A stretch of 64,000 bases of DNA from Nitrosopumilaceae archaeon (GTDB taxonomy: Archaea; Thermoproteota; Nitrososphaeria; Nitrososphaerales; Nitrosopumilaceae). The notes under the pieces are model-generated. The model was not told the DNA's origin. It saw nothing but the letters and a program-made list of their open reading frames with translations, and ran no database searches. The stretch spans positions 32,001 to 96,000 of the forward strand of contig CBDBMG010000001.1 of assembly GCA_965207375.1 (NCBI GenBank), given 5' to 3'. This document shows, piece by piece, positions 21,473 through 55,761 of the stretch (the stretch's first letter is position 1; every line of letters begins with the position of its first letter). A program made the position numbers and the translations under genes.

Positions 21473-21560
21473 ATGAAATTATTTGTACAATTTGTGCTTT
21501 TGATGTTACTGTCATGTAATGACCCATGCTGCAGCGAGAGAACCTTCATTCCAGGATGCG
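21473..21560 (+). CDS. IgGFc-binding/Calx-beta gene copy 1, exon 1 (signal peptide MKLFVQFVLLMLLSCNDPCCSERTFIPGC)
   Basis: ATG plus hydrophobic core; gtaagt donor in phase 1, in frame with the exon at 24273; paralogous exon at 46187. Confidence 0.8.
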
Positions 21561-25703: not shown

Positions 25704-26076
25704 GTAAGTTATGAGCATCTGTTATTGTATGTAAATGTCAGTGTATCTGCTATATATTTACATGATCTCAGAACCTTTTTGTTCTCAAGGATACAAGGTT
25801 GTGGTCATTTAATGTTTACAGATGATGGCAGATGGCATTTCTTTTTGAGAATAGAACAATAGCCATTGAATTATTGTACTCAACATTGACCACAGCACAG
25901 ATGAGCTGTTACAGCAGCTGTTGGCTCTTTGCTATTATTCATTACCTATTGTCATAGTTACAGTGTGTGTATATTTGTACTTGTAAATTACCACTAATAA
26001 CACTTTCTCACTTATGATGTACAGCTAGTAGCTACCATGGTTACCAAATGATATTGAGTCATGTCATTATCTGTAG

Positions 26077-26133
26077 CTGTGGTCTCATTTGAGACAAATG
26101 GAGGATCAGGAGTTATCTTAATAGTATCAGAGA
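26077..26133 (+). pseudogene. Truncated Calx-beta exon of copy 1
   Basis: SVVSFETNGGSGVILIVSE matches 53188 onward, then is replaced by a hairpin-family-B fragment (~26134-26425); the rest of the Calx-beta sequence is absent before alignment to copy 2 resumes (~26440 vs ~53745). Confidence 0.8.
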
Positions 26134-29100
26134 GTGCAAGGCCAATCAGAAACAGTGTAGCAACCAAAAGCTTTGATATCAGTAAGGTTGACATTTTATT
26201 AAAAATATACAATATTTTCACAGCTATGGTTGGCTTTGTCACTTGGCCACCTTTTTATACTATCATCGAGACCAAGTGACAAACTCAATCATAGTCGTGA
26301 ATATGCCTTGTAGCTAAACTATTGTATATCATCATAAAATGTTTTAACTTCTTGGCCTTTGGTCACTTATAACCATTGCTGCTTCTGATTGGTCTCACAC
26401 TTTTTTTACAGCCAGACTGTTTTTATATATTACATATAATATATCTGACTGTCTGTAAAAACCAGCCATGTTTGCATCAAAACTGAAATCCATTTTTATT
26501 ACACAAGATCATAGCTACACTCAAGAACAACTATCAATACACACAGTATTTCTACTGGCCAATGTGAACAAGTGTTTTCTGGAGGGCATTTTGCCAACCT
26601 TGTGATGCCACGATAAAGAGAATGGTGCCTATCATAGAGCCAGTGTACCAATTAGGTGGCCATGACCTGAAACTGTTCCCATTGCCTTGCCCTTGTGGTG
26701 TGGTGTAGGCTCCTTGTGGCTACGTTTCCTACTTGAAACAGTTCCTTACAGTTTTTTGATCCACCTCCCACCCCTCTCTCCTATCCCACTCACTCACTCC
26801 TCGATGATGGCTAGATCTCAAAAGCCCTGAAATCCAGCCATCAGGTTAACTCTATGAATAATTGCTGCTAATATAAGATGGCTGGCTATAGGCAATTGCT
26901 TGTTTTAATTAATTGAAATGTTATTTCTCAAAATATTACCTAGGCTGGTTTTCACTCAGATGGTCACATATATTTGAGTAATTACAGTATTGTCATCATA
27001 GTTACTGTTATGCACTGTACATATAAACCACTAGGAATCTACTGGTTTGTATATATACATAGCTATGCAGCAGCTCACCACTATAATAATTATGCCAGTT
27101 TTGTGCTAGTATATAGTCTGTCTTAGCAGCATGAATTTTTATAGCTACAATGAGCCAAAGATACATTGATTTTAGTGAGTGGTTGCATTATCGCTAAAAT
27201 TTACTGATGCTAATTATAAACAATTTGATTGATAATCTCTAATAAAGCAGTCACCAATGATCGGTGATTGCACTATTACAGAGTATCAATGTGCAATCAG
27301 TATTCACTAAATGTGCAATCACTAACTTTAGTGTATATATTGTTAACATTACTCGGCTTATGGTACATAAGTAGTTTTACAGACCATTATTATTATACAG
27401 TATATAGCTACAGCTCAAAGACAACTTGATGCATGCAGGCAGAGCATACATGGTTAGCTCGAGTGTCACCCACACCCACATGTGCATGTAAGGGACATGT
27501 GCATGCCAAAAGTAATGCAGATTCTCTCCACCTAACTCAGTTCTTCATTCTGGCTTGTTTATTCTTACACTAGTTCACGCATATACATAGATTTAATGCT
27601 GTAACATACCAACCAAATTTATACTTGTTTGTCACCATATCAATTGGTTGTATTGCCATGCCTTGCTTGGAAAGAACAAGGATAGCTGGTTTTCTTAAGT
27701 AAATTAGGCACCATTCATTTCATCCCACCAATTGAAAACTCATTTCAAAATATTATATTCTTTGTTAGTATCCTGCGCATTTATAAAGTATTCGTTACGC
27801 GCATGGAGGGACCAAGCCAGATACTTACCGATGCCTTCAGCTCACCACCTACGTGTGGGTATCAAGTTGCCTTTGAGTTGTACCACTCCTACACTACATA
27901 AAATAGTAGGAGCTAGACTGCATACAGTATACAGTAGCTACATAGCTATATTACATAATAATGGAATATTTATTATACAGTATATTGAATCATGTTCAGT
28001 ATGAACTCATACCTTACCCAAATTGAATAATTGAAATGGCTCCCATCACTACATGCAATACTGTAGTTAGTTACTACTGTTGAAATATTGATTAATGGAA
28101 AATAGCCACATTGTTTTGCTTTTGTCATTGTACTGGTACCAATTGGCATAATACCCTACTATTGTAGTACAAATTTTCCTAACCATTCTCAGTAGTTACA
28201 TTTCATATATTATGTAATCAACTAGCTGGTATGTGATGTTTTTAGTTGTTACTTGACATGACACATTACAATGGTATGCTCGTTAGGATTATTTACATAC
28301 AAAACATCAATTAAAGAAAATAAATATTATATCACTCACCCACATAAGGTAGATCGTAATGCAATGTGCAAAATAATTTTTGAAACATGGCCTGAGACAC
28401 TGTCAGGACATAAAGTTTGGACGGACATAAGTGCAGTGGAGTTGTCTGAACATTGTGTTAAATCAACAGTCTTCCAGTAGTCTTTGCTCAAACGTTTATT
28501 CCGTACAAATGTAAAAATGCCCTGACAAATAGTGTTTTTCTCCAGAAAATGTCCACTGTCAGGCTGTTATTCCACACTCTGTAATGTAACTTATAGCATT
28601 TTGTATATGTACCTAAACCATTTACTGTATTTAGAGAAAAATTTGCTGTTGGAAATTTTCACGTGGAAACAGTTCGTGGTAAAATATTTTCATCTTCTGA
28701 GATAGTTGACGAAAATTTTTAACAACGAATGTTTTCCTAGTTGAAATTTTGTCACTTTGCTTGCTATATATATTCAGCCTTGGCTCTTGCACTCAGTCTT
28801 GTCTAGCCATACGATGCATTTCACACGAACATGTACGTACACATAGATTAGGGATTATAAATGCTTGCAGACTTGAAGGTATTTGCATAAGAAGCTCGAT
28901 CTCAGTTTCCTTCCCAGCTAGATATGGAGAGTGACAACATTTACATGCCCAAATATGGATTTTATCAACACCTTCCAATTTAACCTTCCAATGATGCCAT
29001 TGTAGTTCTACTTAATGAACAAGTGTCAGAATCTGAAGTATTTTGCCCACATGTGGGCAAAAAGTGAACAAGTTTGCCTAGCTTATTTAAAAATGGGGAA

Positions 29101-29641: not shown

Positions 29642-31274
29642 TGCTAAACAAAAACAGCCTGGCTGTAAAAAAAGTGTGAGGCCAATCAGAAGCCACTATG
29701 GCTATAAGCGACCAAAATCTCTGATATCAAGTAAGGCCAAGAAGTTGAACATTTTATTAAGAATCCTTTTACTTGAATGACATACAATAGTTTACAGGGC
29801 ATTTTCACAACTATGATTGGCTTTGTCACTTGGCCACCTTATAAAAGATGATAGTACAAAAAGGTGGCCAAGTGACAAAGCCAATCATAGTTGTGAAAAT
29901 GCCCTGTAAACTATTGTATGTCATTCAAGTAAAAGGATTCTTAATAAAATGTTCAATTTCTTGGCCTTACTTGATATCAGAGATTTTGGTCGCTTATAGC
30001 CATTGTGGCTTCTGATTGGCCTCGCACTTTTTTTACAGCCAGGCTGTTTTTGTTTAGCATATCACTGCTTTTTGTAAATAGATTACAATTATAAACAAGT
30101 CCTGACAAGAAACCTTATATGAAGTATGCAGAGTAATAAAAATTTAAAGGGGAGAGGAGCTGGAAGTTAATACTTTAGGTGTTTCCCCGGCTTGTATTTC
30201 CCCCAAGTAGCTAATGAACATATAAAGTACGTATTACTATAATTGTTAGCTATGTATATAGGTGGAGAACAGTGAAGAACCTCAATGAAGGCACATCATT
30301 GCCATCATGTCCTGTACTGTTGATTGATCTACAGGAGAAGATATATTATAATGCTATAAATAAATTTTGTGCATGCTAACAGGACAGTGGTCTCCTATTT
30401 ATAATGTATGGCCACTGTTCACCTCGTGTTGTTTGGTATAATTATCTTGCATGGCACATAAGCATGAATGATCATTAAAGGCTAATTTTGACAAACTGAA
30501 GTGTCACAATTTCTTTAAACTTATCCTGAAGATTCATATATCAATATAGTTTGTGTATCTGAAATTTTATTCAAATGATTTAGAGGGGGTCCTAGTTATG
30601 GAAACTATCAACATGCAGTGTAAAAGTATCTCTCAAATACAGTTAGGTATTTGCTTTATGCTGAAAGTTGTTTGTCTGATAGAGCATACATAGGAGAAGT
30701 GTTGATACAAATTTGGTTGAAATCCATGCAGAAATGAGTGAGTTATTAGACAAATAAGTGTGAGTGTTTCAAATAGAAATTCCGGAATTCACGCGCAAGC
30801 GCACAAAAAGTGTGCGATGAAAATGAAAGAAGAAAGAAAGAAAAAAAACGACGGGCGCCTAAAATATTTTTGATTACAGGAAGGAGTTTATAAGGCGTGT
30901 ACGGAAAACTCGTGTCATGGATATCAAACGACTTCAGGTCAACGATTCTTCATACATTGAAGGTACTATTTGTTTAGTAAACGAGTAAGTAGGTGCCAAG
31001 GGGATGGTTTTTCGAGCGTGGGCGCACGAACGGGTGCCATAAAACTCGCAATGGCTGGTACTTAGGATTGGTGGCGCCGATTTCCTCCATTGTCGGGTTA
31101 CTAATTCTATATGGTTAGAACGTTCTGAGTCCTGAATAACTAGGCGATAGCTGTCGTGGCGGCTTAGTTACAGAGTTTTCAAATTTCAGAGCGGTGCTAC
31201 GTGTAAATAACTCACTCATTCGTCGCGTACGGCTGCTTCTTCTTGGCCTCGCGACTCACTATCGTGAGTCTTGA
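29642..31274 (-). mobile_element. Helitron-like element, family B, with a 200-bp-arm terminal palindrome
   Basis: 5' TCAAGACTCACGATAGTGAGTC; arms 29641-29840 and 29861-30060 with a 20-nt loop; inserted in gagataa|tttataaaag with no TSD. Confidence 0.75.
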
Positions 31275-32543
31275 TTTATAAAAGTTTAATCCTACTTTTG
31301 GTGAATGTACTAATGACTAAAATGAGCCAAAAGTAGGGATTAAACTTTTATAAATTATCTCTTGCCAGAATCTTCAGTGTTCACTCGTGCCACAATCTTA
31401 TTCCTTGTTTCCTTACTTTTGTAGCACTGTACTAGTGGATCCCTTCGATCCCTACTCACCATTTAAATTTTTAATTTTTTATTATTCTAGTTTGTTAGCT
31501 GTTTATAGGGCATTATAATAATCATTCAGGTGCCTATATAGCAGGTACACAAAATTCTACAGGCGCTTACATAATCATGGATTCTTTACAGATGCTTGTT
31601 AACAACCTGCTTGTGTGGCAAAGCAGCTGTGAAAGCAAATCACGTCCTTTAAACAGCGAATCTATTTGTCCAGTGGTTAGTCGATGTTTAGTTTATAATC
31701 AAAACATCGATAAGCGGCTGGCGCGTAAATTGGTCTGGCACGCGAGACTAAGACTAGTCTGCGTTTCAGTTGAATTAGTTTAGTTATAATTTATGGAGTA
31801 TAGTCGTTCAAATTGTTTAGTGTACAGTTGTGTCAAGTAGTGCAACAGTGGATGTGGCGTAAGTTGATGCTGTGCTTTTTCGTGTAATGGGATGGCAACC
31901 ACGTGTGTGTGTGTGTGCGCATGCGTAATACTTAGCCTAGAATGTTTCTTCTAGAAAGCCTCTTCTGTAAGCCATAACACAAAATTCTCTCTGAGGACAC
32001 ATGCAACATTCCATGAAGCGATTTGTAACTATAAAACGACAGGCGCGCATTATTGTACCTGTTTACACCTTGTATGGAATGTTGTGGTTACGCTGAAATA
32101 GGTTTACGCATTCCAATTGATAGAGAAGAAAGTAATAAAAGGAAGGATAAAAGAATCACCATGGCGTAGTAGGAAAATTGTCTTCGGAACAACAGATTCG
32201 TAAATTCGACGCAGTAACCTGTTGTTTTGTGTAATTTTTGGAGCCCTACACCTAGCGCAACCCGGTCTTACAGCAGGCTGGCTGGCAGGCTGGCAGGCAG
32301 ATGAAATCCAGGTGATTTTCAAAATTTTTAAATTCATTATAGATCAAAATAATCAACATTTTGCTTTGTTAAACAAATATAAAGCATTATTATAGCTGTG
32401 CTAGTGCATTTAAGTCGGTCGCGCCTGGTTTCTTAAAAGGGTAGCGTTAGGTACAGGCCGAATGCCGCAATTACTAACTTTAATTATTTTGATAGGCGCT
32501 TGTGATAGACTTTGAGCAACAACGGTTGTAGCCCCATTGTAGC

Positions 32544-32638
32544 TAGTCTGGCGTAGCCAGCCCCCATGTGTGAGCATCAGCGAGCGCCCCATCAAATAAA
32601 TTAGCGAGCGCATAAAAGGGTCTGGCAACGCCAGACTA
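32544..32638. mobile_element. 95-bp mini AcademH-like element
   Basis: TAGTCTGGCG..CGCCAGACTA; 9-bp TSD cattgtagc. Confidence 0.8.
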
Positions 32639-33055
32639 CATTGTAGCCTGGACATGATAGCTGATTACTGAGCTGCTAGCTAGCTGACAAGTTTTAACGA
32701 CGGCAGGCCGGGCGAATTTGTTGGGCCCACTTTGGCTTGCGGCTTGGATTAATTCGTTTGGATACTAATGAAAACGATTCAATGAAAACAGCTGGAAGTG
32801 TGCGGTGTTTTCCCCACATGATGTTGCCATTTCTACCTTGAAGATTACGGAGTGCTTGTCTATAACGTTGCAGCTTTTGTCTCTTCCAGTCGCTTTATAC
32901 CAGCGTGTTTGAGATGATGGCTATTAAAGCAGACGTTTAACTGCACAACTTTTCAAAAGTCCATGCCTCACGTGAGTCGCTCAACATGCTACCATAGATA
33001 AACTGTTCAGTTTTATATACGACCAATTTAAGGGTTTATATATCTTGGCCATTGC

Positions 33056-33981
33056 CAGGGGCGTAGGGAGGGGGGTTTCCTTGGGTTCAGGAAACCCCCT
33101 TCAAGTTCAGTACATAACACAACTTGGTGAAATTACACCAGTGATATTACAAATGATATAAATGACCAAACCTTTGAGGCTCAATATATATAGTCTTGGT
33201 ACGTATATAATTACTTACTTGCTTTAAACTTTCTATCAACCTTCTGTATCAGAATGGAACATCGCCATTTACGGGGTGTGCATTATTTAGAATTTACATG
33301 TGTATTTAATTATGAAGCGCCAGATGACTCTAGATGGGTTTAGTTTTGTGAAAACTAAGCAAAGGTATGAAATTCATATATATACATATTGAATTCTATT
33401 GTGTTTCTTTGTATGCATGTTGTTCCATGGGTTAATTGTTTTAAAGCACGATATTGAACTTACTAACTGAGTACCTAGCTAAGCAATTTCAGTCAGCTAG
33501 CTACAAAAGATCCTTTTTAGTACAGGCTTATTAAAAAGTAATCATAAGCCTGTAAAGGAATACTTTTGTAGCTGGCAGGCTGGAATTGCAGAATTGCGAT
33601 ATGATGGTACTGCCAGTAACTTCATATGAAGCAGAGCGTTCTTTCAGTACTTTGCGTAGACTGAAGACTTATCTCCACACTACAATGAGCCAAAAAAGAT
33701 TAAATGGCTTAGCTTTACTAAATGTATATAAGTCTACCACATACATACCATCTACAATGAAAATTAGAACTGAATTTTAGAAGCATAGGTGTTTAATGGA
33801 ATCCAAATCTTTGTAGGTAGCTAGCTAATTAACTATATCATTAATACATTCACTGTAATCATGCAGGAGCTAGATACACACAAACATTATTTTACATCTG
33901 ATTATATTTGATAATTCGTCAGCGTCTGGGATCTATACTCCCAGTGGAAACCCCCTTTATAAAATCCTGGCTACGCCCCTG
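33056..33981 (+). mobile_element. hAT deletion derivative with a dimerisation-domain remnant (~33601-33780)
   Basis: CAGGGGCGTAG...CTACGCCCCTG TIRs; 6-bp TSD cattgc; LPVTSYEAERSFSTLRRLKTYLHTTMSQKRLNGLALLNV motif. Confidence 0.9.
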
Positions 33982-35463
33982 CATTGCAGTAATATGACTT
34001 CACCAACAAAGGTTGTAATTATGTAACACTATAACACTTATTTTTGTAGGTACTGTTCAGTCTTGTGTTCAGTATGATGTTCCGGGATAAAACTGTTCAT
34101 CATTGTATGATTGTACTGGCACATTGAAATAAAGATGTAAACAATGTGCAACCAGTTTGAAAGTATCACTACGGAAGTCAAGGAACCAGATTCCCAAGAA
34201 GCAAGAACAAAATTGAGTATAGAAACAAGGGAACATGGACAAGAGCATAGCCAGATCCAAGCGCGAAGTGTAACGATCACAGATGTTCTTGTGCAATTGG
34301 AATGCAATTATGTTTATTATTATAGTTCAATTGTCATAAATTTAGCAAATACTGTGATCTGATTGGTGATTTTATAATACTGCTATCTAATTGGTGCTGT
34401 GACTATAGTTGCAATGACACCCGTGATTGTCACCAGACCCTACATGAGACTAGACAAGATTAATCTTAATGTTGATACTGTGCATGTGCATGTGGAATCA
34501 TAGTGAACTGTTTAACTATTGTTATATTGTGTGTTACCATTCCAGGTACTATAATACGTACTTAGATCCATCTTATACCCCACAAATATTGCCTGTATTT
34601 CAGTAAAATCTGTAATTCATAAAATCAGACACAATATAAAGAATTACAAATATTGTATAGCACAAAATTTTTTATGGGAAATGAAGTCTTACCCCTATGT
34701 ATAGTTGCATAGTTCTTATACAAACTTGATGGGCGGAACATTGACAAATTGACAGAAAATTTCCCTATTGAAATTTTTCACTTATCATGCTGGTCCTGAA
34801 TATCCTTGTATCATCCACCACTCATCTTCTTGTGACAGTATATCATCAGGTAAAGTTGCACATGTTGAAGCCTTGAAGTTCAAGTTCAACTTCATGATGC
34901 ATAAGACTTTGGCCATAATAGTTAAACTGTTCTTTTACAGCAAAAATCTTCACAGCTATGTATCCAACCCTAGTTTTGTTGAATGGCTTGACAGGACCTG
35001 AAAAACCCAAGTGTTGATATTAAATGTTACACATACCCAACACTGCATGATTTGCTGGTGGACCGTCATTACACATGTACGGACACGCACACAAAAGCTA
35101 GCCAACAGTAAAAGGTTGTTGCTATAATAGTGGTTAGGCAATGGTAAGACGTTGAAATACTCACGTGAGGCATGGATTTTTGAAAGTTGTGCAGTCACTG
35201 CAGTGAAACATGCTTTAATAATCATCATCTCAAACACGCTGATATAAAGCGATCGGAAAACAATACGTTATAGTCAAAGGCTCCGTAATCATCAAGGAAC
35301 AAATGGGAAGGTGAGTTGATTAACAAATCAATCAATCGATCAAATCAAGAATTACAAACGCCTGTAGAAATAAATTAAGTAAGTTTTACGGTAGAAACCG
35401 ATTTCCGGTTGCGGCATTGGGCCTGTACCTAACGCTACCCTTCTTAAAATCACTTCGGTGCGG

Positions 35464-35617
<154 letters not shown>

Positions 35618-36241
35618 GCCCCCGAGGCCATGAATAACTAGTGGCATGATATGGACCCTGTGTGATTGGTTAAACAAGTTCTGCTGCCTTTTCACTTCTT
35701 TATACGGCACTTGCTATCGATAGTGTTGATGGGCGGGGCCTTAGTAACGAAGCGCGTCGTGAGTTACTGCCAAAGAAGAGCAAGATAACGCTGTATTTGC
35801 CGTTCATTACACGGTAAAAGCTGTTTAACCAGTCGTACATTACTAACAAGACGGAGCGCTTTAGTTTTATAAGTGGGCGTGCCGTGCGGGTTGCGGAGCT
35901 TATAAAAGAAGACTGGCCTACACAGTTACAGTAAGAATTTCGGCATAAAATAACTTTATACTACTTTCAAAAAGTTCTATCACTAAAGTACTGGAGTACA
36001 AAGCGGGTTTAAACAGAAGAATTAAATTCGCATGCGTTGCTATGTGTTCCTTAGTGATGAGTCTATGCTCACGTGACTTGCTGATGACGTTATTAAGGAC
36101 TATTACAATACATTAAATAAATGTTTTAGCTTACACACAACGTCTGGTTTTTAGATGGTAATACGTCAACTTGTTCACATTGCAGACCCTACCTCACGTG
36201 ACCTCTGCTTCTGATAATTTCGCTCGATCCTTACATTGAAC

Positions 36242-36936
36242 ATGTTGCGAATTGACCTTGTGCTAATAGTAGCAATATTTACTACTATTGTACAATGTCA
36301 GATAATGACGTTACTCAACTCTACTTCATCCTACCTTATGTACGAAGGATTAGTAATTGAGCCGGAGGGCGCCGTCACGTTAACTCTCAGAACCTACCAG
36401 TTAAATGCTACTGTGTTGTATATACAAGGAGTCGATGAGACATTCGTTTATCTACATCTAGTGAATGGTAGAATGAGTCTTGCAGTAAATGATGGCAACG
36501 GCACGAAAACGAGATCTTTGCCTAACCCGTACAATACTAAGAGTGCAGATGAAATTTACCACTGGAATGATAAAACTTATGGGTAACAGCGGCACGGAGA
36601 GTGTAAATATTAGCAGACAAGTGGAGATCATGTCACCCATCTTTATTGGAGGTATACCAGATACGCCTCCATTTTCAATTACCAATGACCTAGTGATGAA
36701 TAATGCCCACTTAGTGGGTTGTGTGAGACGTGTACAGCTGAGCAATGGAACTACAGATACAGATAGTGCAGATGCTACAGAACGTAGTAGGGATATAGAG
36801 GATGACTGTACTCTAGCATGTCGAATGTTAGACTGTAGCCCAGAAGTGGATAGTGAAGGCCAATGTATAGAGTATTATACTCATGGAATATGTAACTGCA
36901 GAGTAGTGTTTGATAGTGAGGGGTCTTGGTGTAATG
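36242..36936 (+). pseudogene. Neurexin-like gene exon 1: signal peptide, LamG and EGF-like domain, with a +1 frameshift near 36530-36545
   Basis: MLRIDLVLIVAIFTTIVQC signal; LTLRT...VLYI...LHLVNGRM in one frame continues as IFIGGIP...LVGCVRRV and a 6-Cys EGF-like unit in the next frame; gtaagt donor. Confidence 0.8.
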
Positions 36937-36983
36937 GTAAGTTGAGAATTATGTTGCAATGTACTGTGATATTCTGTTATTAG

Positions 36984-38093
36984 AGACGGTAGCTATTACA
37001 GCATTTGATGGGTTGAGTTATAAATGTTACACTCTACCTCAGTATGATAGTCCATTTGTTGAAGATGAAAGTATTACACTATTTGCAAGAACTCCGCCAC
37101 CTAGTGGTACCTTGATGACTGGATGGAGAGGAGACTATCATTTCTCTTTATATATTAAAGAGCATATACTTCATTATGAAGCATGGCAAGGTAATAAAAG
37201 CATCGTTAACGTCACCTCTACTCAAGATATTGGGGTTGGAACATTTGAAGTTTATCGAACTGTTGATATTATCGAGTTCAACATAATTGATGAGACAAAT
37301 TTTAGAACACCATTTGCCACAGGAAATATTACTTTACGAGAATTTGATTATGTTCGATTCCTTGATATTTGTGTAGGTGGTGCTACCTTAAAGAGTCCCC
37401 TTTATTCTGGTCCTTTACAAGAAGTATATTATAATCTTTACCATCTGTCAAGTAATGGTTTTAATGAGAGAGATGTTTCAAGAGTTGATAGAGTAAATTT
37501 TGTTGATTCTAATGCTCGGATTATGTTACCAGGCAACCTAGGAGATGGATTAACTACTCACATTGAATTACAATTTCGTACAGCACAACAAAATGCTATA
37601 TTGTTACATGCCGAGAGTGGAAACAATTTCTTCCGTGTTGCTATCAACAATTCTAAAGTGTATATAAGCTTGCTAGTTGATGATAGGGCTTACAGTAGCA
37701 GCTGTAACCTTGCCATTACTCCGACTAACTGGTACTCACTAAGTGTAGAGCCTATAGTTGGGTCAGACAGTAGTGATGGAGTTAGTATTACAGTAAGCAG
37801 TCCTCATGCTAGCACTCGGTGTGGAGTTACATCACTTATTGCAGTCTTCAGCTCTACATCTGTAGTAGTTGGGGGTGAGGCTGGAGGTGTAGATGGGTTG
37901 ATGGGATGTGTGGAGTTGATGTTGAACATGGAACCACTAAGCTTGGGGGCTGTCCTTAGTGACATAATACGAACAAATGGTTGTCAAGCTTGTGACATAG
38001 CAACCCCTTGTCTAAATGGAGGGAAGTGTCAACCTCTTGATGATCATACCTTTAACTGTAGCTGTATAGATCCTTACCATGGTGATTATTGTG
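36984..38093 (+). CDS. Neurexin-like gene exon 2: LamG-LamG-EGF
   Basis: AFDGLSY..ITLFART, IELQFRTAQQNAILL, VVVGG...LMGCV, CDIATPCLNGGKC...FNCSCIDPYHGDYC; 47-nt upstream intron; gtaagc donor; no further LamG exons seen. Confidence 0.88.
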
Positions 38094-38192
38094 GTAAGCA
38101 TTATCTTCATACTAACATCTTGAGGCATATGTACAGTCCCCATGTAGTGTAGTATGTGGTGGTTGTGTTTCACGTGAATGAGTGATTACTAA

Positions 38193-38498
38193 GGGGGCAT
38201 CTCCAAACTGAATTTAGTACGCTTAACGTCATAATGACGTTTAGAGGGGGGTTTCAGACCGTGACGTTATTAATTTAAATACTTTATATGTATGTATATT
38301 GTATGTATGTATGTATATATTTTGTATGTATACTTTATATATTGTATGTATGTATGCCTTACTGGGTAAAATATTAAATAACATGATTTTGTGCCAATAC
38401 ATTGTTTTACTAGCATGACATTAAGGAGGGGGAGGGGGATCAAATAGTTAGTGTCACAATGACGTTAAGTGTACTAAATTCAGTTTGGAGATGCCCCC
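38193..38498. mobile_element. PIF/Harbinger-like MITE
   Basis: GGGGGCATCTCCAAACTGAATTTAGTAC TIR; TAA TSD. Confidence 0.85.
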
Positions 38499-38880
38499 TA
38501 ACATTGTGGTCATACTGTCCCCCACATGACTTCTTGTGTTACAATCATGTCAATCAATAATATGAGCAATAGACATGATGGGAGGGCTTTATTGCATTAT
38601 ATGATGGAATCCTTCTAAAATAAATAAGTATCATTACTAGTTAGTTGCTCGCTATATTTGTCCAGAACTTCTACTAAACTGACAAGACTCTGAAAAGTAA
38701 TCCTTTGCGCCAAAATCTGAAGACTGTTCTGGTACCTGTATGTGAGCTGTCCATTAGCACCCGGCATTGATTGCAGACCTGCGTATGTTGGCTCCCGCAG
38801 TCCATTAATAATGCCCCAGTGCTTAAAATCATACCTGGCGCATAAATAATTAATTGATATGTCTAAATGGCAATGTTGGG

Positions 38881-40682
38881 TCAAGATTCTTTCGATTTCT
38901 TCTGTCTTTGGGCATCCTAGTACTAGGTAAGTTATTGCAGCTACGCGTATGAGTCACGAGGCCAAGAAGAAGCAGGCCATACGCGACGAACAAGTGAGTT
39001 ATTTACACATAGCACTGCTGTGAAATTTGCGAGGGGTCCGACACAATTTCAAATCTTGTTGATGGTTTGCCTTGATTTCAAATCACAAATCATGAAAACC
39101 TTCCGTAATTATTGTAAATTCTTGTCAATATTAGCTCAATAGATTTACATTATCAAAATATATTTCAAAATACAAAGTAAATACTTTGAAATGTAAAATA
39201 TATACAAATCAAATCACCCCCAAATCAATTAAGGATTTCAAATCTTGTCAATCAAATTCAGACCCCTCGGAAATTTGTTAACGTTCTAAATAAGCCGCCA
39301 TTAAAGTTATCGTTTAGGTATTAAGGGCTCAGTATGTTCTAGCTATATAGAATCAGTAACCCGACAATGGAGGAACTGAATCGGCGCCACTACGAGTTTT
39401 ATGGCGCCCATTCGTGCGCCCACGCTTGAAAAACCATCCTTTTGGCGTCCATTCACCCGTTTACTAGACAAATAGTACCTTTAGTGTGTGAAGAATTGTT
39501 GACGTGAAGTTCATCAACATTGGTCACGTCTAACTTCTACAACAGCCATACAAAGTCCTTCCTGTCATCAAAAAATTTTTTACACGGCTTGTGTGACCCG
39601 GCATGAATCCCAGAATTTATATTTGAAACACTCATTTAGTACATACACTTGTTTGTCTAATAACTCACTCATTTCTGCAGGATTTCGACCAAATTTGTAT
39701 CAACACTTCTCCTATATGTAGCTATGCTCTACCAGACAATTAACTTTCAGCATAAAGCAAATTTAATACCTCAATGTATTTGAGAGATAATTTTACACTG
39801 CATGTTGGTAGGTTCCAAAACTCGGACCCCATCTAAATCATTTGAATGAAATTTCAGATACACGAACTATATTGAAATATCAGTCTTCAGGATAAGTTTA
39901 AAGAATTATGGCACTTCTGTTTGTCAAAATTAGGCTTTAACCATTTCATTCATGTTTATGTGTCATGATAATTATACCAAACAATAATAGGTGAACAATG
40001 GCCACACATTATAAATAGGAGACCACTGTCACTGTTAGTGTATACAAAATTTTGTTTAAGACATTATAATATTGTCTTCTCCTGTAGATTGATCAACAGT
40101 AGAGGATGGCAATTATGATGTCGCACGTGCTACACATGACTGAGCCTTCATTGAAGTTGTCAACTGTTTTCCAGCTACATATAGCTAACAATTGCATTAA
40201 TAACACATACTTTATATGTTCATTAGCTACTTGGGGGAAATACAAGGGAAACATCCAAAGTATTAACTTGCTCCTCCCCGTTAAAATTTAATTACTCTGC
40301 ATGCATATTTTATATAAGGTTTCTTGTCAAGACTTGTTTATAATATATAATCTGTTTTGAATACTTACAAAAAGCAGTGATATGTACAAAAACAGCCTGG
40401 CTGTAAAAGAGTGTGAGGCCAATCAGAAGCCACAATGGTTATAAGCGACCAAAAACTCTGATATCAAGTAGCTAAGGCCAAGAATTTGCATTAAGAATCC
40501 TTTTACTTGAATGACGTACAATAATTTACAGGGCATTTTCACAACTATGATTGGCTTTGTCACTTGGCCACCTTTTTGTACCATCATCTTTTATATAGCT
40601 GTACGTAGCTATAAAGTGGCCATGCAAGTGACAAAGCCAATCGTAGTTGTGAAATTGTCCTGTAAACTATTGTATGTCATTA
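38881..40682 (+). mobile_element. Family B element, degraded, right hairpin arm truncated
   Basis: Reverse-complement match to 29642-31274 along its length; further hairpin fragments at ~3980-4360, ~18805-18980 and ~26134-26425. Confidence 0.75.
39030..39269. mobile_element. CGAGGGGTC-family MITE, 8-bp TSD
   Basis: CGAGGGGTC..GACCCCTCG; TSD gaaatttg; absent from the other family B copy. Confidence 0.8.
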
Positions 40683-41286
40683 ATCCCCAATAATTGTCAT
40701 TCTATGTCACGGTTTCTAGTTATAAGGTAGAAGGTGCCACGCTATCTGAGAAATAATAGGGGGCATAGTGCCCGGAATAGCCAACTCTCACGTGATATGA
40801 ATAGCTTATCTTTATGAAGAATCTGCAGCCTATTGCCAATCGTAAATGCTTTTTAATGATGCCCTATATTTTGTCCCTCTCACCTACACATTGTGGTACC
40901 GTACATTTTGCAGTCTTTATATACAAAGGGTTTAAGGCTTTGCTTACTAATAACTACTAGAGCTGAGGTTATGCTGGTGTTCAAATGTTATATTTTATAA
41001 TTCACATTTTAGCAGAATCCAATCAGTTGCCTTACCATTCAGTTCAGCCGTACTGCATGCCCGTTAGAATGTCTAATAGCTAGCTATATAGCTACAGTAG
41101 AAAATAGCCTCAATGCAGCAAAATATGTAAAAGCTTCAAATAGAATTTGTAGCATGGATTGCTCTATATAGCTTGAGTTTAGGGCTCAAATATTCTTGAT
41201 CCTACGTAACTGAATTAAGCAATCTCAGTTCCAATGTGATAAACAATGTACACTAATTTTAAGGAATTATAAGTTACAAGTTGTTT

Positions 41287-42140
41287 TTAAACCAACCAAA
41301 CAAGTCCTACTGCCTTTCAGTTTCTCTGTATGGCACTTGCTATCAATATTGTTGATGGGCGGGGCCTTAGTAACCAAGTTAGTAACGTAGCGCGTCGTGT
41401 GTTACTTTCAAAGAAGAGCGCCGTTTAACCAGTTGTACATTACTAACAAGACGGAGGGCTTTAGTTTTATAAGTGGGTGGTGCCGTGCGGGTTGCGGAGC
41501 CGCTTATAAAAGAAGACTGGCCTATAGTGTTACAGTAAGAATTTCGGCATAAAACTTTCAAAAAGTTTTATCACTAAAGTACTGGAGTACAAAGCGGGTT
41601 TAAACAGTAGAATTAAATTCGCATGCGTTGCTATGTATTCCTTAGTGATGAGTCTCAGTTTCTCTTTACGGCACTTGCTATCGATACTGTTGATGGGCGG
41701 GGCCTTAGTAACTGAGTTAGTAATGTAGCGCGTCGTGTGTTACTTCAAAGAAGAGCAAGGTAATGCTGTATTTGCTGTCCATTACACGGTAAAAACCGTT
41801 TAACCAGTTGTACATTACTAACAAGATGGAGGGCTTTAGTTTTATAAGTGGGCGTGCCGTGCAGGTTGCGGAGCTTATAAAAGAAGACTGGCCTATAGTG
41901 TTACAGTAAGAATTTCGGCATAAAACTTTCAAAAAGTTTTATCACTAAAGTACTGGAGTACAAAGCGGGTTTAAACAGTAGAATTAAATTCGCATGCGTT
42001 GCTATGTGTTCCTTAGTGATGAGTCTCTGCTCACGTGACTTACTGCTGAGGTCATTAAGGGCTATTACAATACATTAGATTAACAGTGGTTTAACTTACA
42101 CAAAGCGCCTGGTTTTTAGATGGTAATACGTCAACTTGTT
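41287..42140 (+). mobile_element. HINE copy 2 with an internal ~340-bp tandem duplication (41317-41654 / 41655-~42026)
   Basis: ttaaacca 5' remnant, repeated core, canonical 3' end. Confidence 0.8.
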
Positions 42141-42770
42141 TCAGCTAAAGCATATTGTAAGGTGGTTTCTAAACATGGGAAAAATCTGCATTCCGTACAT
42201 TCCTTATCGATCCCGTACTTAATTATATCATACTATTTTATGGAGTAATAATGGTGTGTAAAAGTACTTACACACCATTATTATAATTCCTACACTCCAT
42301 AAAATAGTATGAGCTAGTTTTATTATGTAATAATGGAATACATTATATTGAATCATATTCAGTATGAACTCATACCTTACCCATATGAATAACTACTACC
42401 TCCCATCACTACTTTAATTAATAATTAGTTACTGCTGTTAAGACCGATAATCAAATAAACTGATATTGTGATAACCGATATATCGGCTATGAAAATCACC
42501 GATACTGATACCGATAGAGTTAATCATTCTAACTCTAGATATTCAGTCACTATACAAGATCTAACGACATGCTAGTAACTGGAAACACTTGTTTTGCTGC
42601 TTTAATGTGGACTAAAATTTTAAACTGTTTGTTCAGTAATCTTATCATTGAATAAACATAACTGTGAACTTTGGAAAAAACATGTCCCCTTAAAATAATA
42701 GCTACTTTCATATTTAATAATGCAACACTACAACACTTGTATAGTTACAAGTTAGCTAATTATTATACTA

Positions 42771-43448
42771 TAGTTGGTTCGCGTTCACTGTGCGGTCGCC
42801 TTTTTTTTAATAACTTCCGGTAGAAACACGCTAGAATAAAAAAATTTATATTGTCGTGAAGCCCTTAAAATGCCGGAGAGGATGAAACAAGAAGTGCTTC
42901 AGCTGGAGCCAGCGCTTGGGAGTTATCGAGCTTTTAAGTTTTCCCATACATTTCCTATGGAGAAGCCGTTTAACTACAGTCCTTTAAAGTTACCGAACTG
43001 ACACATGTTTGTGACGTATTTGTGATAAAGTCGCGCCAATGTGTCGTCAGTAATAATACATTTTCGTCGCTAATGGTGAATTGTTCGCTTGAAGATACCT
43101 CTAAAGGTACAGTAAATATATTGAAACCATAGCGCTATACATAGAAAGACTTGCCAATTCATTTTAATTTTATCGTGCGCACTAAAACTTATTTAACCTC
43201 GCCATTCTTGGTTTATCGATATATGTTTCAGTAAAAACATACTTGTTATCACTCCAAAAGTGCTTTTCTTTCTTTAAAACAGTATAGCACGAGTCTTAGT
43301 GAAGACGCCATTTTTGTAAACGTGAGCCATTGTGCGCCCATATTTCGCATAATTAAATAATGACGTAGAAAACATATGTCTAAAACACTTTGATCTTAAA
43401 TGGCTTCATTTCAGCTAGCTCAACAGCAAAGTGAACGCGAACCAACTA
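42771..43448. mobile_element. TIR element (TAGTTGGTTCGCGTTCACT), superfamily unclear
   Basis: 19-bp perfect TIR; no clear TSD unless the terminal TA is itself the TSD. Confidence 0.7.
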
Positions 43449-43473
43449 CATAAATGTTTTGTTCATTTTGCAG

Positions 43474-43620
43474 GTGAAGAGGAGATTTGCTCAGTTACCA
43501 GTGTTAGTGGAAAAGTTAGCCATAACAAAACAAGAAAAAGGACAAAATTCAGGTTTTCATCTGATGGTAATCCAGGAGTCACATACCAATGCAAACTTGA
43601 TGATGGCAAGTTTAAAAATT
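43474..43620 (+). CDS. Exon encoding the N-terminal half of a basic bacterial-type Ig-like domain
   Basis: tttgcag acceptor, gtaagt donor, 147 nt, phase 1-1; TKFRFSSDGNPGVTYQCKLDDGKFKN. Confidence 0.8.
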
Positions 43621-44135
43621 GTAAGTTTTTAACTAATATAAATTCTTATAGAACTACCTGCAAATCAGTTCAGCCAGCCAAATGTGTAGAATCTGTGACA
43701 TTCAATTTGTACAATAGCTTTGTACAAATAATAGCTATATAACTAGCTAGCTAGATCGAGTGCTGTAATTTATTGCTATCAATGCTCTGTTACCACTATA
43801 AGTGTGTTCATCATTACTGATTTTATAGCTAATCACTTTAGCAAACACATGGACAGCAAAAATGTGGGGCAGAGCACCTCTAAAAATAAATACTCTAATA
43901 AAGCAGTCATTTATCCTAATAGAACAGTTAATAGTACAAAATTTATTGCCTGGTTCCACCACCTCTAGTTTATGACAATTAACTAGGGACCCACACCATA
44001 TACTACAGCTAAACTTTCTTTGCAAATTGTTTTTCGACAGGGATCGGTTCCTCATAAGGACCCCATTAAAATTGCTTATCATTCTACACATCCTATCCTA
44101 TATCATTTTGTAGAAATACCAATACATATGAATGA

Positions 44136-45327: not shown

Positions 45328-46186
45328 TCAGTGTGACTTCATCCCTCTTCATGCTGGCATTTGATTATAGTAGTTTATATTTCTTTGTTAGGTTTCTGCA
45401 CTGAAATTAGATTTAGAATTAATTGCTACTCTTTATTGTGCATTTAACTTTTAACTTCGTAATTATGCCAACCATATGAAATCTGTATGCTAGCTTAAGT
45501 CGAAGACACTTACTTTCAGTTTGATTGTCAGCTTTAGTCAATAACTTTACATCTGGATCAGAGGTTAACACTAAGTCCACCATGCTACCTATGCATGAAT
45601 TTATAGCTACTTAAAACCCCTGAGTGCATCAACTCTGTTGCAAATAAGGACTTGTTATAGTTGAATCTCACACTTGCTATAGCAAACACACCGGCATGGA
45701 TGGTAGTTTGAGACTAAAGCAGCACGATTACATCAATTAAGGAGGCTCCTTTGTCCCCTTACTACCCAAATATTGGCTAGTTAATAAGTATAATTTTGGG
45801 CATAATATATAGCTAGACATTGAGGCGTAATAGGCAAATTTTCTGGCACATTGTAGCAAATGATAGTAAATTTATGAACCTGACTAACTAAATTATTACA
45901 ATTATTTTACTTGTAATCTAACAACAACAATAAACAATAGCTAAGTAGTGTGAATTCCAACACCAATATCGCGTGATCACTTCTGCTTAAAGGATCGCCA
46001 AAACAAAATATGTTTTTCCCACTAGCACAGATTTTTCTGACCATCCAAAACTCAGCTCTACACTGGATGTATCGCCGCTTTATGAGACATAATCGTTGTT
46101 GCGCAAGATCACGTGACCATGGCTCGTGTGATATTTGCGAGGTGAATCTTGGTGGTGGCATGCTTATTTCAGTTTAATGTACGAGA

Positions 46187-46333
46187 ATGAAATTATTTGT
46201 ACATTTTGTGCTTTTGATGTTACTGTCATCATAGATATTATAGACTCCGTACCCGTACGGAGTCTATAGCTAATATCTATGCTGTCATGTAATGACCCAT
46301 GCTGCAGCGAGAGAACCTTCATTCCAGGATGCG
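46187..46333 (+). pseudogene. IgGFc-binding/Calx-beta gene copy 2, exon 1, disrupted by a 59-nt insertion
   Basis: Near-identical to 21473-21560 apart from a 52-bp palindromic element plus 7-bp TSD. Confidence 0.85.
46230..46281. mobile_element. 52-bp palindromic P-like mini-MITE
   Basis: CATAGATAT..ATATCTATG; 7-bp TSD ctgtcat; empty site in the paralogous exon at ~21510. Confidence 0.8.
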
Positions 46334-47150
46334 GTACGTTGTTCTGCATTCATATGATAGTTAGATAGTGTACGCTATAAAGCCAGGCAAACTCGATTAC
46401 TTGTTTCTCAATTATCGCCCGCATGACTCCAAACACTACCGCCTTAAATTTTAGTATGTTTATAAATTCATTATTCAAAATGTCTTCACCCGGCTCTCAC
46501 TCCCATTGTAAAAATTAATGTTCATGAGAAAGCAAGTATCAAGTTTGGACTAACTCATAACTGATGATACCTTTCTTGGCATTTTATGCACTGGTCTTCA
46601 ACTGTTAAATAAGTTTCAGTCCAACCAGCTCATTCTGCATGGTAATAATTATAACAAAATAGCCTATGCACACGTGGTTGTGAAGGTATACAAAAATGGG
46701 TTGACAAAATTAATTTTATTAATCTAGTGCTACGAAGTGAAAACTATCAGGTGACTATTTGCAATAATTTTTACAGAACCAACCCCTTATTCATGAAACT
46801 ATTAAGAGCTGCCTTTTCTAATAGCCATGATCAGAATGACACAAAAATCATTACACCTCTCACAATGAAGACCACTGAATAACTTATCACCAAGAGTTAA
46901 TAATAAGATCACCAAGGTAAACAGTTTAGGACATAAGCCCTGTCTTTAGACGTCTCTGCATGTGCATTTTTATCAAAACCGCAAATTTTAATTGTGACTT
47001 GCTATCAAGATGGGAATCATTTTAACTGATAAGTAAGATAAGTAACTAGTCACCAGATAGCTTTCAATAGCATTTCATTTTTGTGCATCAGTAATCCAAA
47101 ATTTTCATAAGATGTACAAAATTTCAAAAACCTTAGATTTTGCAGGTATA

Positions 47151-48944: not shown

Positions 48945-49179
48945 TACTTTGCAAGGGGCACAATGTTTAATGGTTATTTTTACAAAAGGTGCCAAGTTTG
49001 CAGATACTTATGTACTTAGTCAGGCTATAGTCTCCTATGCTAGTTATCGATGTGACGAGACAAAATTGCAGACAGAGGACAGACAGGTTTTAAGCTTTAT
49101 ATTATCATAATATTGATATCCTTGAGGGGAAGATCACATGATTAGCATAAAATATAGCATGGCCTTTTAATGTGATTAA

Positions 49180-52720: not shown

Positions 52721-52929
52721 GTAAGTTATGAACAACATGTTATTGTATGTAAATGTCACTTATGTCAGTGATCTGTAACATGATCTAATTTTTGTTAGAA
52801 CCTTTTTGTTCTCAAGGACACAAGGTTGTCGTCATTTCATGTTTACTGTTACAGCAGCTGTTGTCTCTTTGCTATTGTTCATTATAGTTACAGTGTGTGT
52901 ATATTTGTACTTGTAAATTACCACTAATA

Positions 52930-53123: not shown

Positions 53124-53187
53124 TAACACTTTCTCACTTATGATACAATGGTTACCAAATGATATTGAGTCATTTCATTATCTGTAG

Positions 53188-55675: not shown

Positions 55676-55761
<86 letters not shown>

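What the first reader, a model, noticed from the sequence alone, without database searches (positions are those of the whole stretch)
32418..42140. 9.7-kb HINE-cargo-HINE composite carrying a neurexin-like gene fragment, inserted into another element
Seen: the family A element stops at ~32417 (gcatttaagtcg) and resumes at ~42140 (ttcagctaaagc); in the 48820-48850 copy these motifs are adjacent, separated by a T-run. The intervening block begins with a HINE 5' part, ends with a HINE 3' end, and between the two HINEs holds ~5 kb including the upstream region and two exons (intron retained) of a LamG/EGF gene whose ATG lies ~66 bp after the first HINE end. Established: Helentrons insert in T-runs and rolling-circle elements capture host DNA by terminator bypass. 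Inference: DNA-level gene-fragment transposition into an intron of the IgGFc/Calx-beta gene, by composite rolling-circle transposition or by HINE-HINE recombination with a circle.
Basis: partly seen in the sequence, partly recalled or inferred. Interest (0 to 1): 0.8.

Follow-up and report, generated by a model that had tools for sequence, protein, structure and literature searches.

The report
Gene piece carried between two rolling-circle transposons
A 9.7-kb block bounded by two different rolling-circle-type transposon relics, carrying the first two exons of a laminin-G/EGF gene, sits inside an older repeat in what is probably sponge host DNA; it looks like a fresh example of the known way such transposons drag gene pieces to new places.

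Summary
A repeat ("family A") that runs unbroken across a T-run in at least 25 other copies is split in the window at 32419/32420 and 42140/42141 by 9,721 bases.

The block starts with a HINE-like element, HINE1 (32420-36175). HINE1 lacks the left arm of its 5' palindrome and carries a nested 3-kb hAT element. The block ends at the canonical 3' terminus of a second, 5'-truncated HINE-like element of another subfamily, HINE2 (41290-42140).

Between them lie 60 unique bases and then a LamG-EGF-LamG-EGF gene start: ATG 36242, a retained 47-nt intron, and a splice donor at 38094. A MITE and a 1.7-kb repeat follow.

The HINE-like family inserts in T-runs without target duplication. [quoted passage not shown]

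No donor locus was identified. Reads and three other assemblies show a second version of the gene whose upstream sequence differs from position 36236 leftwards. Whether it is a paralogue or an allele is open.

The window's copy has an 11-nt frameshifting deletion that one other assembly lacks. No autonomous partner with matching ends was found.

This is a new member of a known kind, of moderate interest.

The parts
31950..32419 (+). Left part of family A repeat copy 2 (SINE-like, about 50 copies per 2.1 Mb). It ends ...GCATTTAAGTCGG plus one T of its T-run.
32420..32438 (+). HINE1 5' piece. This is the right arm of the palindromic 5' subterminal repeat (CGCGCCTGGTTTCTTAAAA). The left arm AAACCAGGCG... 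is absent.
32439..35440 (.). Nested hAT-like element. It has 41-nt inverted ends (90% complementary) plus further subterminal inverted blocks, and an 8-9-bp target duplication (T)TCTTAAAA at 32430-32438 and 35441-35449. A remnant hAT dimerisation ORF lies at 33556-33780. The element is low copy.
   Evidence: (PF05699, E 4.1e-9)
35441..36175 (+). Rest of HINE1: TCACTTCGGTGCGGA, a perfect (TG)75.5 at 35465-35615, then a 560-bp 3' block of subfamily 1. The 3' subterminal repeat is mutated (ACGTCTGG where most copies read GCGCCTGG). The terminus ...CAACTTGTT lies at 36175.
36176..36235 (+). Sixty unique bases between the HINE1 terminus and the point (36236) from which the other version of the gene shares sequence.
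36242..36936 (+). LamG/EGF gene exon 1: ATG, signal-peptide-like start, LamG, EGF-like end. An 11-nt deletion at about 36540/36541 shifts the frame.
   Evidence: read contigs identical
36937..36983 (+). Retained 47-nt intron (GTAAGT...TTATTAG).
   Evidence: exon ends shared by homologues
36984..38093 (+). Exon 2: a conserved N-terminal part, LamG and EGF. The frame is open. It ends at a G|GTAAGC splice donor, phase 1.
38192..38499 (.). MITE with 47-nt inverted ends (94% complementary) around a TATG-type microsatellite, in the intron after exon 2.
38950..40681 (-). Repeat of about 30 copies, inverted relative to its relative at 29648-31195 (77% identity). It is absent from a minor read contig that joins 38938 to a 41007-like sequence.
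   Evidence: (X1 record 4)
40682..41289 (+). Unique tail of the cargo.
41290..42140 (+). HINE2, of the main subfamily. It is 5'-truncated (no palindrome, no microsatellite) and has an internal tandem duplication (41317-41656 against 41655-42027, 85%). Its 3' subterminal repeat GCGCCTGG is intact and the canonical terminus lies at 42140.
42141..42240 (+). Right part of family A copy 2 (T+CAGCTAAAGCATATTGTAAGG...).

Best explanation
A composite made of two unrelated copies of a HINE-like, non-autonomous rolling-circle element, plus the host DNA between them, moved as DNA into the T-run of an old family A repeat.

Inferred course. At a donor locus HINE1 lay just upstream of the start codon of a LamG/EGF gene, and a 5'-truncated HINE2 lay about 5 kb downstream in the intron after exon 2. 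A Rep/helicase supplied in trans started at the HINE1 5' end and failed to stop at the HINE1 3' end, whose subterminal repeat is mutated. It stopped at the intact 3' end of HINE2. The 9.7-kb strand was then inserted between Ts.

At or after insertion, about 4 Ts and the left arm of the 5' palindrome were lost. The hAT, MITE and 1.7-kb repeat are nested insertions of unknown order.

The cargo holds an ATG, a signal-peptide-like start, two exons and a splice donor. No further LamG/EGF exon was detected in the laid assembly. In this individual the cargo carries an 11-nt frameshift.

Shown: the insertion, its boundaries, the family's T-run and no-duplication habit, and the two subfamilies. Inferred: the one-step read-through, the donor arrangement and the later deletion.
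For: (1) Empty sites. 14 of 17 hits of the joined flanks span the joint. The closest family A copies read GG-TTTTTT-CGG where the window has GG-T[9,721 bases]T-CAG. 25 of the 70 listed family A hits are unbroken there.

(2) The right boundary is the exact family terminus; 29 of 41 ends read CAACTTGTT. The left boundary lies within the 5' subterminal repeat of a coherent subfamily-1 element.

(3) HINE1 and HINE2 differ in the diagnostic segment: GATTGGTTAAAC in one, TGAATAACCAACCAAAC in the other. They are therefore two elements and not one element that was later split.

(4) The family behaves like a rolling-circle element. 10 of 10 full copies have 2-6 Ts before AAACCAGG. Clean paralogous empty sites for 2 of 10 copies show precise insertion in or after a T-run with no duplication. 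The 5' end is palindromic and its half recurs about 24 nt from the 3' end.

(5) The intron is retained and there is no poly-A tail, so the copy was made at the DNA level.

(6) Laminin_G and EGF matches occur nowhere else in the 4.3-Mb assembly. The flanking exons are Ig, IgGFc_binding and Calx-beta.

(7) The other version of the gene diverges exactly at a TT six bases before the ATG. Its upstream peptide is encoded nowhere in the 2.14 Mb.

(8) The HINE1 3' subterminal repeat reads ACGTCTGG. The read-through model makes such ends prone to bypass (PMC4778049, passages read).

(9) Three Rep/helicase loci lie in the host contigs, one with open frames.
Against: - No donor locus with HINE1-gene-HINE2 was seen, and no second copy of the composite.
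- The left junction is not a canonical 5' end. The window's copy is the only one of 16 without the left arm.
- The shared sequence with the other version starts at 36236 and not at the HINE1 end, so 60 bases remain unexplained.
- Read contigs look like mosaics of the two versions, and their depth ratios differ between samples: about 2.3-3.3 to 1 in X1/X2 and about 1 to 2 in X4/X5. That pattern fits alleles or gene conversion as well as paralogues.
- The same lineage has an intact 647-codon reading frame in another assembly (P0046+P0042). This is not expected of a long-dead fragment.
- No autonomous element with these ends was found within about 10 kb of the Rep loci.
- No Exo_endo_phos domain was found in the assembly.
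- No 3' hairpin is predicted; z-scores are +0.5 to +2.7.
- The left junction was not checked with reads. The read contigs reach only 25 bases into the HINEs at 36175 and 42140.
Confidence: 0.5

Rival explanations
1. Insertion at the DNA level without a rolling-circle step. Ectopic recombination, gene conversion or break repair between a resident HINE in family A and HINE copies flanking the LamG gene elsewhere copied the segment in. This includes integration of a circle by HINE-HINE crossover.
For: The left junction is non-canonical: half a palindrome and about 4 Ts are missing. About 60 similar HINE 3' blocks per 2.1 Mb offer homology. Mosaic read contigs suggest sequence exchange between versions.
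Against: The right boundary coincides to the base with the family's terminus next to the remaining T. The two ends belong to different subfamilies, so a single resident element is not recovered when the middle is removed.
Confidence: 0.2
2. Two rolling-circle steps. HINE1 first inserted in the T-run. Later a separate element with a de novo 5' start at 36176 and the HINE2 3' end landed exactly at HINE1's terminus.
For: Same-orientation HINE 3' ends cluster elsewhere: 10 pairs lie within 12 kb of each other, among them a run of same-strand ends at C4:331-348 kb. A full HINE followed by a 5'-truncated one lies at C4:478163-476559. Helitrons are reported to insert next to each other's ends (PMC4778049, passages read).
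Against: No T lies between the HINE1 terminus and 36176. The second element would lack any known 5' end. This route needs one more event than read-through.
Confidence: 0.1
3. The LamG/EGF gene is native here, or the arrangement is an assembly or rearrangement artefact. On this reading the two family A parts are the ends of a larger rearrangement, or a mis-join at repeats, and the second version is simply the other allele.
For: The lineage keeps an open frame in another assembly. The versions look recombinant, and depth ratios vary between samples. Exon 2 and its boundaries are conserved in 24 homologues at 39-78% identity. The left junction was not checked by reads.
Against: Both family A parts match the same subfamily and abut precisely at the T-run of 14 empty sites. 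Contigs from two samples reproduce 36151-36394, and one reproduces 42116-42306, without a difference. No further LamG/EGF exon lies in the 432-kb contig. The other version's upstream is absent from the contig.
Confidence: 0.15

Closest known systems
Helitron 3'-end bypass ('read-through') capture, as shown with Helraiser and seen in HelibatN3 (PMC4778049; passages read)
   Same: The cargo lies downstream of a complete element end and stops at an alternative terminator. Like HelibatN3, the cargo holds a gene start and a splice donor and sits in the same orientation as the surrounding exons.
   Different: The ends here are not 5'-TC/CTRR-3', and the target is a T-run, not A^T. The alternative terminator is a true 3' end of another element. 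No amplification was seen (one copy in the 2.14 Mb of host contigs), and no transposition was demonstrated.
Helentron/HINE (DINE-1-like) elements and their rare gene-fragment captures (Thomas et al. 2014, PMC4067079; passages read)
   Same: Shared features are T-rich/TT insertion without duplication, strings of T at the boundaries, a palindromic 5' subterminal repeat with a partner near the 3' end, and an internal microsatellite. That paper proposes end bypass or composite transposition for DINE-1-flanked duplications.
   Different: The 3' repeat lies about 24 nt from the end (38-60 in the mite families). No 3' palindrome was predicted. No endonuclease-bearing partner with the same ends was found. 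The host is probably a sponge; my searches of the held library found no paper on Helitron gene capture in sponges.
One-ended/composite mobilisation by bacterial IS91/ISCR elements (recalled, not looked up here)
   Same: A missed terminator leads to co-mobilisation of adjacent DNA.
   Different: Those are prokaryotic elements with other ends. This is a comparison of mechanism only.

Membership tests
HINE / Helentron-associated non-autonomous element | Inserts in T-rich sequence or a TT dinucleotide without target-site duplication | tested here: met
   10 of 10 full copies are preceded by 2-6 Ts. Clean paralogous empty sites exist for 2 of 10 copies; a third lies in a satellite and is ambiguous.
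HINE / Helentron-associated non-autonomous element | Subterminal inverted repeats: one at the 5' end (itself palindromic in the mite HINEs) and a partner upstream of the 3' terminus | tested here: met
   The 5' end reads AAACCAGGCGCGC...GCGCCTGGTTT in 13 of 15 other copies. GCGCCTGGTTT lies about 24 nt from the 3' end. The spacing is shorter than the 38-60 bp quoted in PMC4067079.
HINE / Helentron-associated non-autonomous element | Short palindrome or stem-loop near the 3' terminus | tested here: not met
   The last 80 nt of three copies fold no better than shuffles (z +0.49, +1.48, +2.66). Only trivial 3-4-bp palindromes are visible.
HINE / Helentron-associated non-autonomous element | Autonomous Rep/helicase/endonuclease partner sharing the termini | tested here: inconclusive
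   Three Helitron_like_N/PIF1 loci are present. None has HINE termini within the 22-30-kb spans scanned around them. PF03372 has no match in the assembly. Only 2.14 Mb of the host was available.
Canonical Helitron | 5'-TC...CTRR-3' ends, a 16-20-nt 3' hairpin, insertion between A and T | tested here: not met
   The ends are AAACCAGG.../...CAACTTGTT and the target is a T-run.
Transposon-captured gene fragment (transduplicate) | A parental gene elsewhere that shares the captured segment up to the element's boundaries | tested here: inconclusive
   No copy lies in the 2.14 Mb. A second version exists in reads and in two assemblies, but sharing starts at 36236 and its locus is unknown.
Processed retrocopy | Loss of introns, a poly-A tail, a target-site duplication | tested here: not met
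   The 47-nt intron is retained, and the exon 2 donor with 3.2 kb of intron is present.
hAT transposon (the nested element) | Terminal inverted repeats, 8-bp target duplication, hAT dimerisation domain | tested here: met
   The inverted ends are 41 nt and 90% complementary. TCTTAAAA is duplicated. PF05699 matches at E 4.1e-9.
Neurexin | Repeated LamG-EGF-LamG cassettes with a transmembrane segment and a cytoplasmic tail | not testable with these tools
   Only LamG/EGF modules are present. The nearest feature clusters are crumbs, neurexin and generic LamG alike. No full-length relative was found.

The most novel reading that the evidence does not exclude
The captured module is not junk but a new first part of a gene. 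The composite delivered an ATG, a signal peptide, LamG-EGF-LamG-EGF and a phase-1 splice donor, in the sense orientation, upstream of the second tandem copy of an IgGFc-binding/Calx-beta adhesion gene. That would create, or have created, a chimeric secreted protein in a sponge by rolling-circle exon shuffling, one still polymorphic (11-nt deletion, repeat presence/absence, two upstream types).

Points in favour: the open 647-codon frame in another assembly; the excess of changes on this lineage in exon 2 (18 against 7); and mostly amino-acid-changing differences between versions (19 against 7 among those listed). These fit a fast-evolving expressed gene as well as relaxed constraint.
Probability: 0.12. 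Interest if true: 0.7.

Novelty: new member of a known kind. Interest (0 to 1): 0.4.

Why it matters
Gene capture by canonical Helitrons is well documented. For the Helentron/HINE side it rests on a few fragments and on the suggestion that DINE-1-flanked duplications arose by end bypass or composite transposition (PMC4067079).

This locus has precise empty sites, two distinguishable flanking elements and a cargo with a retained intron. That makes it a clean structural candidate for such an event, in a phylum where my searches of the held library found no such report. If a donor locus is found, the composite model becomes directly checkable.

It is still a single old copy with a damaged left end. 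It does not change what is known about the mechanism.

Tried and rejected
- Orthologous or donor DNA could not be fetched. The search for related loci found nothing in genome contigs or in metagenome contigs, either with the alignment or with P0010.
- A search for longer proteins gave none. The profile search gave only single-exon pieces as close relatives, and generic LamG/EGF proteins beyond them. The full gene architecture therefore stays unknown.
- No RNA holder was listed for the stretch, so nothing can be said on expression.
- Reads were laid on 35620-44000 only. The left junction and any contig skipping the whole block could not be seen.
- In one search, one X2 contig leaves the window sequence at 41240. 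The listed tables are truncated (thousands of rows are not shown). I did not use parts without cover as evidence.
- I first read AAACCA at 41289 as a retained 5' terminus of HINE2. I rejected this because the main subfamily has TAACCAACCAAAC internally.
- I considered that the D-type upstream might be a HINE end. I rejected this because its 14 residues do not fit any frame of the terminus, by inspection.
- A second composite was sought among 10 same-strand pairs of 3' ends. C3:480-485 kb is two complete elements. C4:478163-476559 is a full element plus a truncated one, but no empty site was found for it.
- ARAGORN found no tRNA-like part in family A.
- Earlier notes of this scan held nothing on HINEs.
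- Supplements of the two papers were not opened; they hold the empty-site figures of those studies.

Full report
**Setting**

The window is C2:32001-96000 of a four-contig assembly. C1 is 2.16 Mb. C2-C4 total 2.14 Mb at 37% G+C and hold every repeat hit of the region: 4,224 hits in C2-C4 and none in C1. C2-C4 carry Ig, IgGFc_binding and Calx-beta exons, short introns and transposons.

I did not test that. I take C2-C4 to be host, probably sponge, DNA. Only this 2.14 Mb of the host could be searched.

**The observation: family A is split**

I used the natural unbroken copy (window 800-1500, reverse strand) as a probe. It gave 148 hits, and 25 of the 70 listed run unbroken across the T-run.

In the alignment, the consensus reads ...GCATTCCAGCTGG-TTTTTT-CGGGTAAAGCC.... 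The window copy reads ...GCATTTAAGTCGG-T up to 32419 and T-CAGCTAAAGCATATTG... from 42141.

The standard empty-site test joins 60 flanking bases from each side. It gave 17 hits, of which 14 span the joint. The closest subfamily reads GTTGG-TTTTTT-CGGCTAAAGCATATTGTAAGG. So 32420-42140 (9,721 bases) is an insertion into one old family A copy, which is itself about 85% identical to its nearest relatives.

**The flanking elements**

A repeat of about 60 copies per 2.1 Mb has the following canonical form:
- a run of Ts;
- AAACCAGGCGCGC(...)GCGCGCCTGGTTT, a palindrome;
- CTTAAAATCACTTCTGTGCGGA;
- (TG)n;
- TCCGCCCC..., followed by a block of about 560 bp;
- ...GCGCCTGGTTTTTAGATGGTAATACGTCAACTTGTT at the 3' end.

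The 5'-terminal AAACCAGGCGC is the reverse complement of GCGCCTGGTTT, which lies about 24 nt from the 3' end. All 10 full copies paired are preceded by 2-6 Ts.

Two of those 10 have clean paralogous empty sites:
- The window copy at 13211-15204 sits in CTTATT^TTTG (three empty sites).
- C2:124841-125504 sits after CTTTTTT (its empty site is window 49967-50066).

Neither shows a target duplication. A third case lies in a satellite and is ambiguous.

These are the traits given for HINEs in PMC4067079 (passages read): T-rich/TT targets, Ts at the boundaries, subterminal repeats that may be palindromic, and microsatellites. Two traits are missing:
- The last 80 nt of three copies fold no better than shuffles.
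- No autonomous partner with these ends was found.

On the second point, three Rep/helicase loci exist. One, at C3:311.5-319.2 kb, has open Rep, PIF1 and UCH frames. None has HINE termini within the spans scanned. No Exo_endo_phos domain occurs in the assembly. I therefore call the family HINE-like: it works like a Helentron/Helitron2-type rolling-circle element, but membership is not proven.

**Anatomy of the block**

*HINE1 (32420-36175).* 32420-32438 is the right arm of the 5' palindrome plus CTTAAAA. The left arm is present in all 15 other copies (13 as AAACCAGG, 2 as a variant) and is missing only here.

At 32439-35440 sits a hAT-like element:
- 41-nt inverted ends, 90% complementary;
- further inverted blocks, 32824-32995 against 35141-35309;
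- a duplicated (T)TCTTAAAA;
- a Dimer_Tnp_hAT remnant.

Removing the hAT restores the canonical HINE sequence. Then follow a perfect (TG)75.5 and a 3' block whose diagnostic segment (GAGGCCATGAATAACTAGTGG...GATTGGTTAAAC) marks a minor subfamily. Its 3' subterminal repeat reads ACGTCTGG, where most copies read GCGCCTGG or a close variant with CCTGG kept.

*HINE2 (41290-42140).* It begins inside the main-subfamily sequence (T)AACCAACCAAAC and lacks the palindrome and the microsatellite. It has a 340-bp internal tandem duplication and ends at an intact subterminal repeat and terminus. The two ends of the block therefore belong to two different elements.

*The cargo (36176-41289).* Sixty bases occur nowhere else in the 2.14 Mb. 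The gene follows:
- Exon 1 is 36242-36936: MLRIDLVLIVAIFTTIVQC..., Laminin_G, and an EGF-like end.
- A 47-nt GT...AG intron follows.
- Exon 2 is 36984-38093: Laminin_G_2 and EGF, with an open frame.
- A G|GTAAGC donor follows.

Behind the donor lie a MITE (38192-38499), a ~30-copy repeat (38950-40681) and 608 unique bases. Laminin_G_2 and EGF match nowhere else in the assembly. The neighbouring same-strand exons are Ig, IgGFc_binding (24230-25711 and 51349-52464) and Calx-beta. The block lies between the two arms of a tandem duplication, 21.4-28.2 kb against 46.1-57.3 kb.

**The gene elsewhere**

Exon 2 has 24 homologues at 39-78% identity in other assemblies. All are single open frames with the same ends. 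Its 90% cluster, and that of exon 1, each hold four members from four contigs:

| Contig | Lineage | Exon 1 | Exon 2 |
|---|---|---|---|
| 432,772 (own) | W | broken, P0045 | P0001 |
| 221,373 | W | intact, P0046, 250 aa | P0042, 396 of 397 residues identical to P0001 |
| 799,999 | D | P0026, 264 aa | P0041, about 90% identical to W |
| 2,874,353 | D | P0044, 264 aa | P0043, about 90% identical to W |

Aligning these shows that the window lacks 11 nt between ACTAA and GAGTG (about 36540/36541). This removes ...N-R-W-L... and shifts the frame.

The D proteins start MEGVVAAHNGKDLN before MLRIDL, where the window reads FRSILTLN. The two versions thus part exactly at 36236, at a TT six bases before the ATG. 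That peptide is encoded nowhere in the 2.14 Mb.

**Reads**

Twelve runs from four studies hold part of the block, and none is on record as RNA. I laid Logan contigs of four runs on 35620-44000.

In X1 and X2, contigs identical to the window cover:
- 36151-36394 (both runs);
- 36449-38045 (X1), and 36365-36790 and 37097-38217 (X2), without any gap, so the 11-nt deletion is real there;
- 40627-41295 (X1);
- 42116-42306 (X2).

They reach only 25 bases into the HINEs, so they support the joints at 36175 and 42140 only weakly.

Depths in X1 were as follows:

| Contig class | Depth in X1 |
|---|---|
| Window-specific contigs | 184-221 |
| Shared exon contig | 276 |
| Minor contig, 92% identical over 36236-36394, then leaving leftwards | 90 |
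| Minor contig matching 38518-38938 (1 difference), then reaching a 41007-41154-like sequence after 502 unaligned bases (the window has 2,068 there), so probably lacking the 1.7-kb repeat | 80 |

X2 has a minor contig (depth 63 of 271) with four differences at 36791-36849.

X4 and X5 come from another study. Their contigs carry 11 extra bases within 36236-37005, which would restore the frame. One starts at 36162, so it holds the HINE1 end and the 60 bases. The other leaves at 36236.

Of the 26 listed coding differences, 19 change the residue. Sixteen of those 19 give the state of both D proteins and one more gives that of one of them; the other two do not.

So a second version is present in all four samples. 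Its parts combine differently in different contigs, and the depth ratio varies from about 2.3-3.3 to 1 in X1/X2 to about 1 to 2 in X4/X5. This fits paralogues with gene conversion, recombining alleles, or contigs that switch between versions. I cannot tell which.

Against outgroups, exon 2 has 18 changes on the W branch and 7 on the D branch, with 9 ambiguous. Exon 1 has 3 and 5, with 5 ambiguous.

**Mechanism**

The exact 3' terminus at the right joint, the 5' end region at the left joint, the T-run target and the two distinct flanking elements are best met by one strand. That strand would have been started at HINE1 and ended at HINE2, which is 3'-end bypass or composite transposition. This was shown experimentally for Helraiser and proposed for HINEs (PMC4778049 and PMC4067079, passages read).

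The mutated subterminal repeat of HINE1 would favour bypass, but the mutation may be later. The missing left arm and about 4 missing Ts need an extra deletion of 14 bases or more. Loss of one palindrome arm is plausible, but it is inferred.

The 60 bases could be an earlier short read-through tail of HINE1. In that case the other version would be the empty site of HINE1's insertion at the gene's own locus. This is inference only.

The rivals are recombination between HINE copies, two adjacent insertions, and a native gene with rearrangement or mis-assembly. They keep about half of the probability, because no donor was found and the left joint was not checked with reads.

**Verdict**

The structure is real and well explained as a transposon-borne gene fragment inserted into another repeat. 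This is a new example of a known process, from an unusual host. It has an unresolved donor and an open question whether the module is dead or part of an expressed chimeric gene.

Noticed in passing
G000 contigs C2, C3, C4 (window = C2:32001-96000): Half of this 'prokaryote' assembly (2.14 of 4.30 Mb) is eukaryotic host DNA with Ig, IgGFc-binding, Calx-beta and LamG exons and transposons. The marker-gene figures nevertheless read 99.95% complete and 0.06% contaminated.
   Followed up: partly
window 21369-28249 and 46098-57307: Tandem segmental duplication (up to 90% identity over 1.7 kb). Each arm carries an IgGFc_binding exon. The second exon (51349-52464) matches only profile positions 1-228 of 297, so it may be truncated. 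The composite lies between the two arms.
   Followed up: no
window 36540/36541: An 11-nt deletion flanked by CTAA/CTAA-like microhomology breaks exon 1 in this assembly and in runs X1 and X2. Another assembly of the same lineage (P0046) and contigs of runs X4 and X5 do not have it, so it is a segregating frameshift.
   Followed up: yes
window 35465-35615: A perfect (TG)75.5 microsatellite (100% matches) lies inside HINE1. Other copies of the family carry much shorter or interrupted TG runs at the same place.
   Followed up: no
L019 (C3:306000-325000), ORFs 6057-13221: A Helitron-like element has three consecutive open frames: Rep (Helitron_like_N plus DUF6570, 1214 aa), PIF1 helicase (632 aa) and a UCH ubiquitin hydrolase (546 aa). 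A 96% identical partial copy lies at C2:183520-189340, and a ~180-nt-arm palindrome follows its 3' side.
   Followed up: partly
C4:331727-348177: Five same-strand HINE-like 3' ends lie within 17 kb and no 5' marker was found between them. This is a cluster of the kind expected from tandem rolling-circle insertions or serial read-through.
   Followed up: no
window 29648-31195 and 38950-40681: Two copies of one ~30-copy repeat lie in inverted orientation (77% identity over 1.5 kb), one outside the composite and one inside it. They could mediate an inversion of the 7.8 kb between them.
   Followed up: no
family A copies, e.g. window 963-1500 (reverse strand): Family A carries a GGCT/GGCA-type microsatellite and a stretch (TGGCGCAGTGGGTAAA) that resembles a polymerase III A box, by recall. 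ARAGORN finds no tRNA-like gene, so its class (SINE?) is open.
   Followed up: partly
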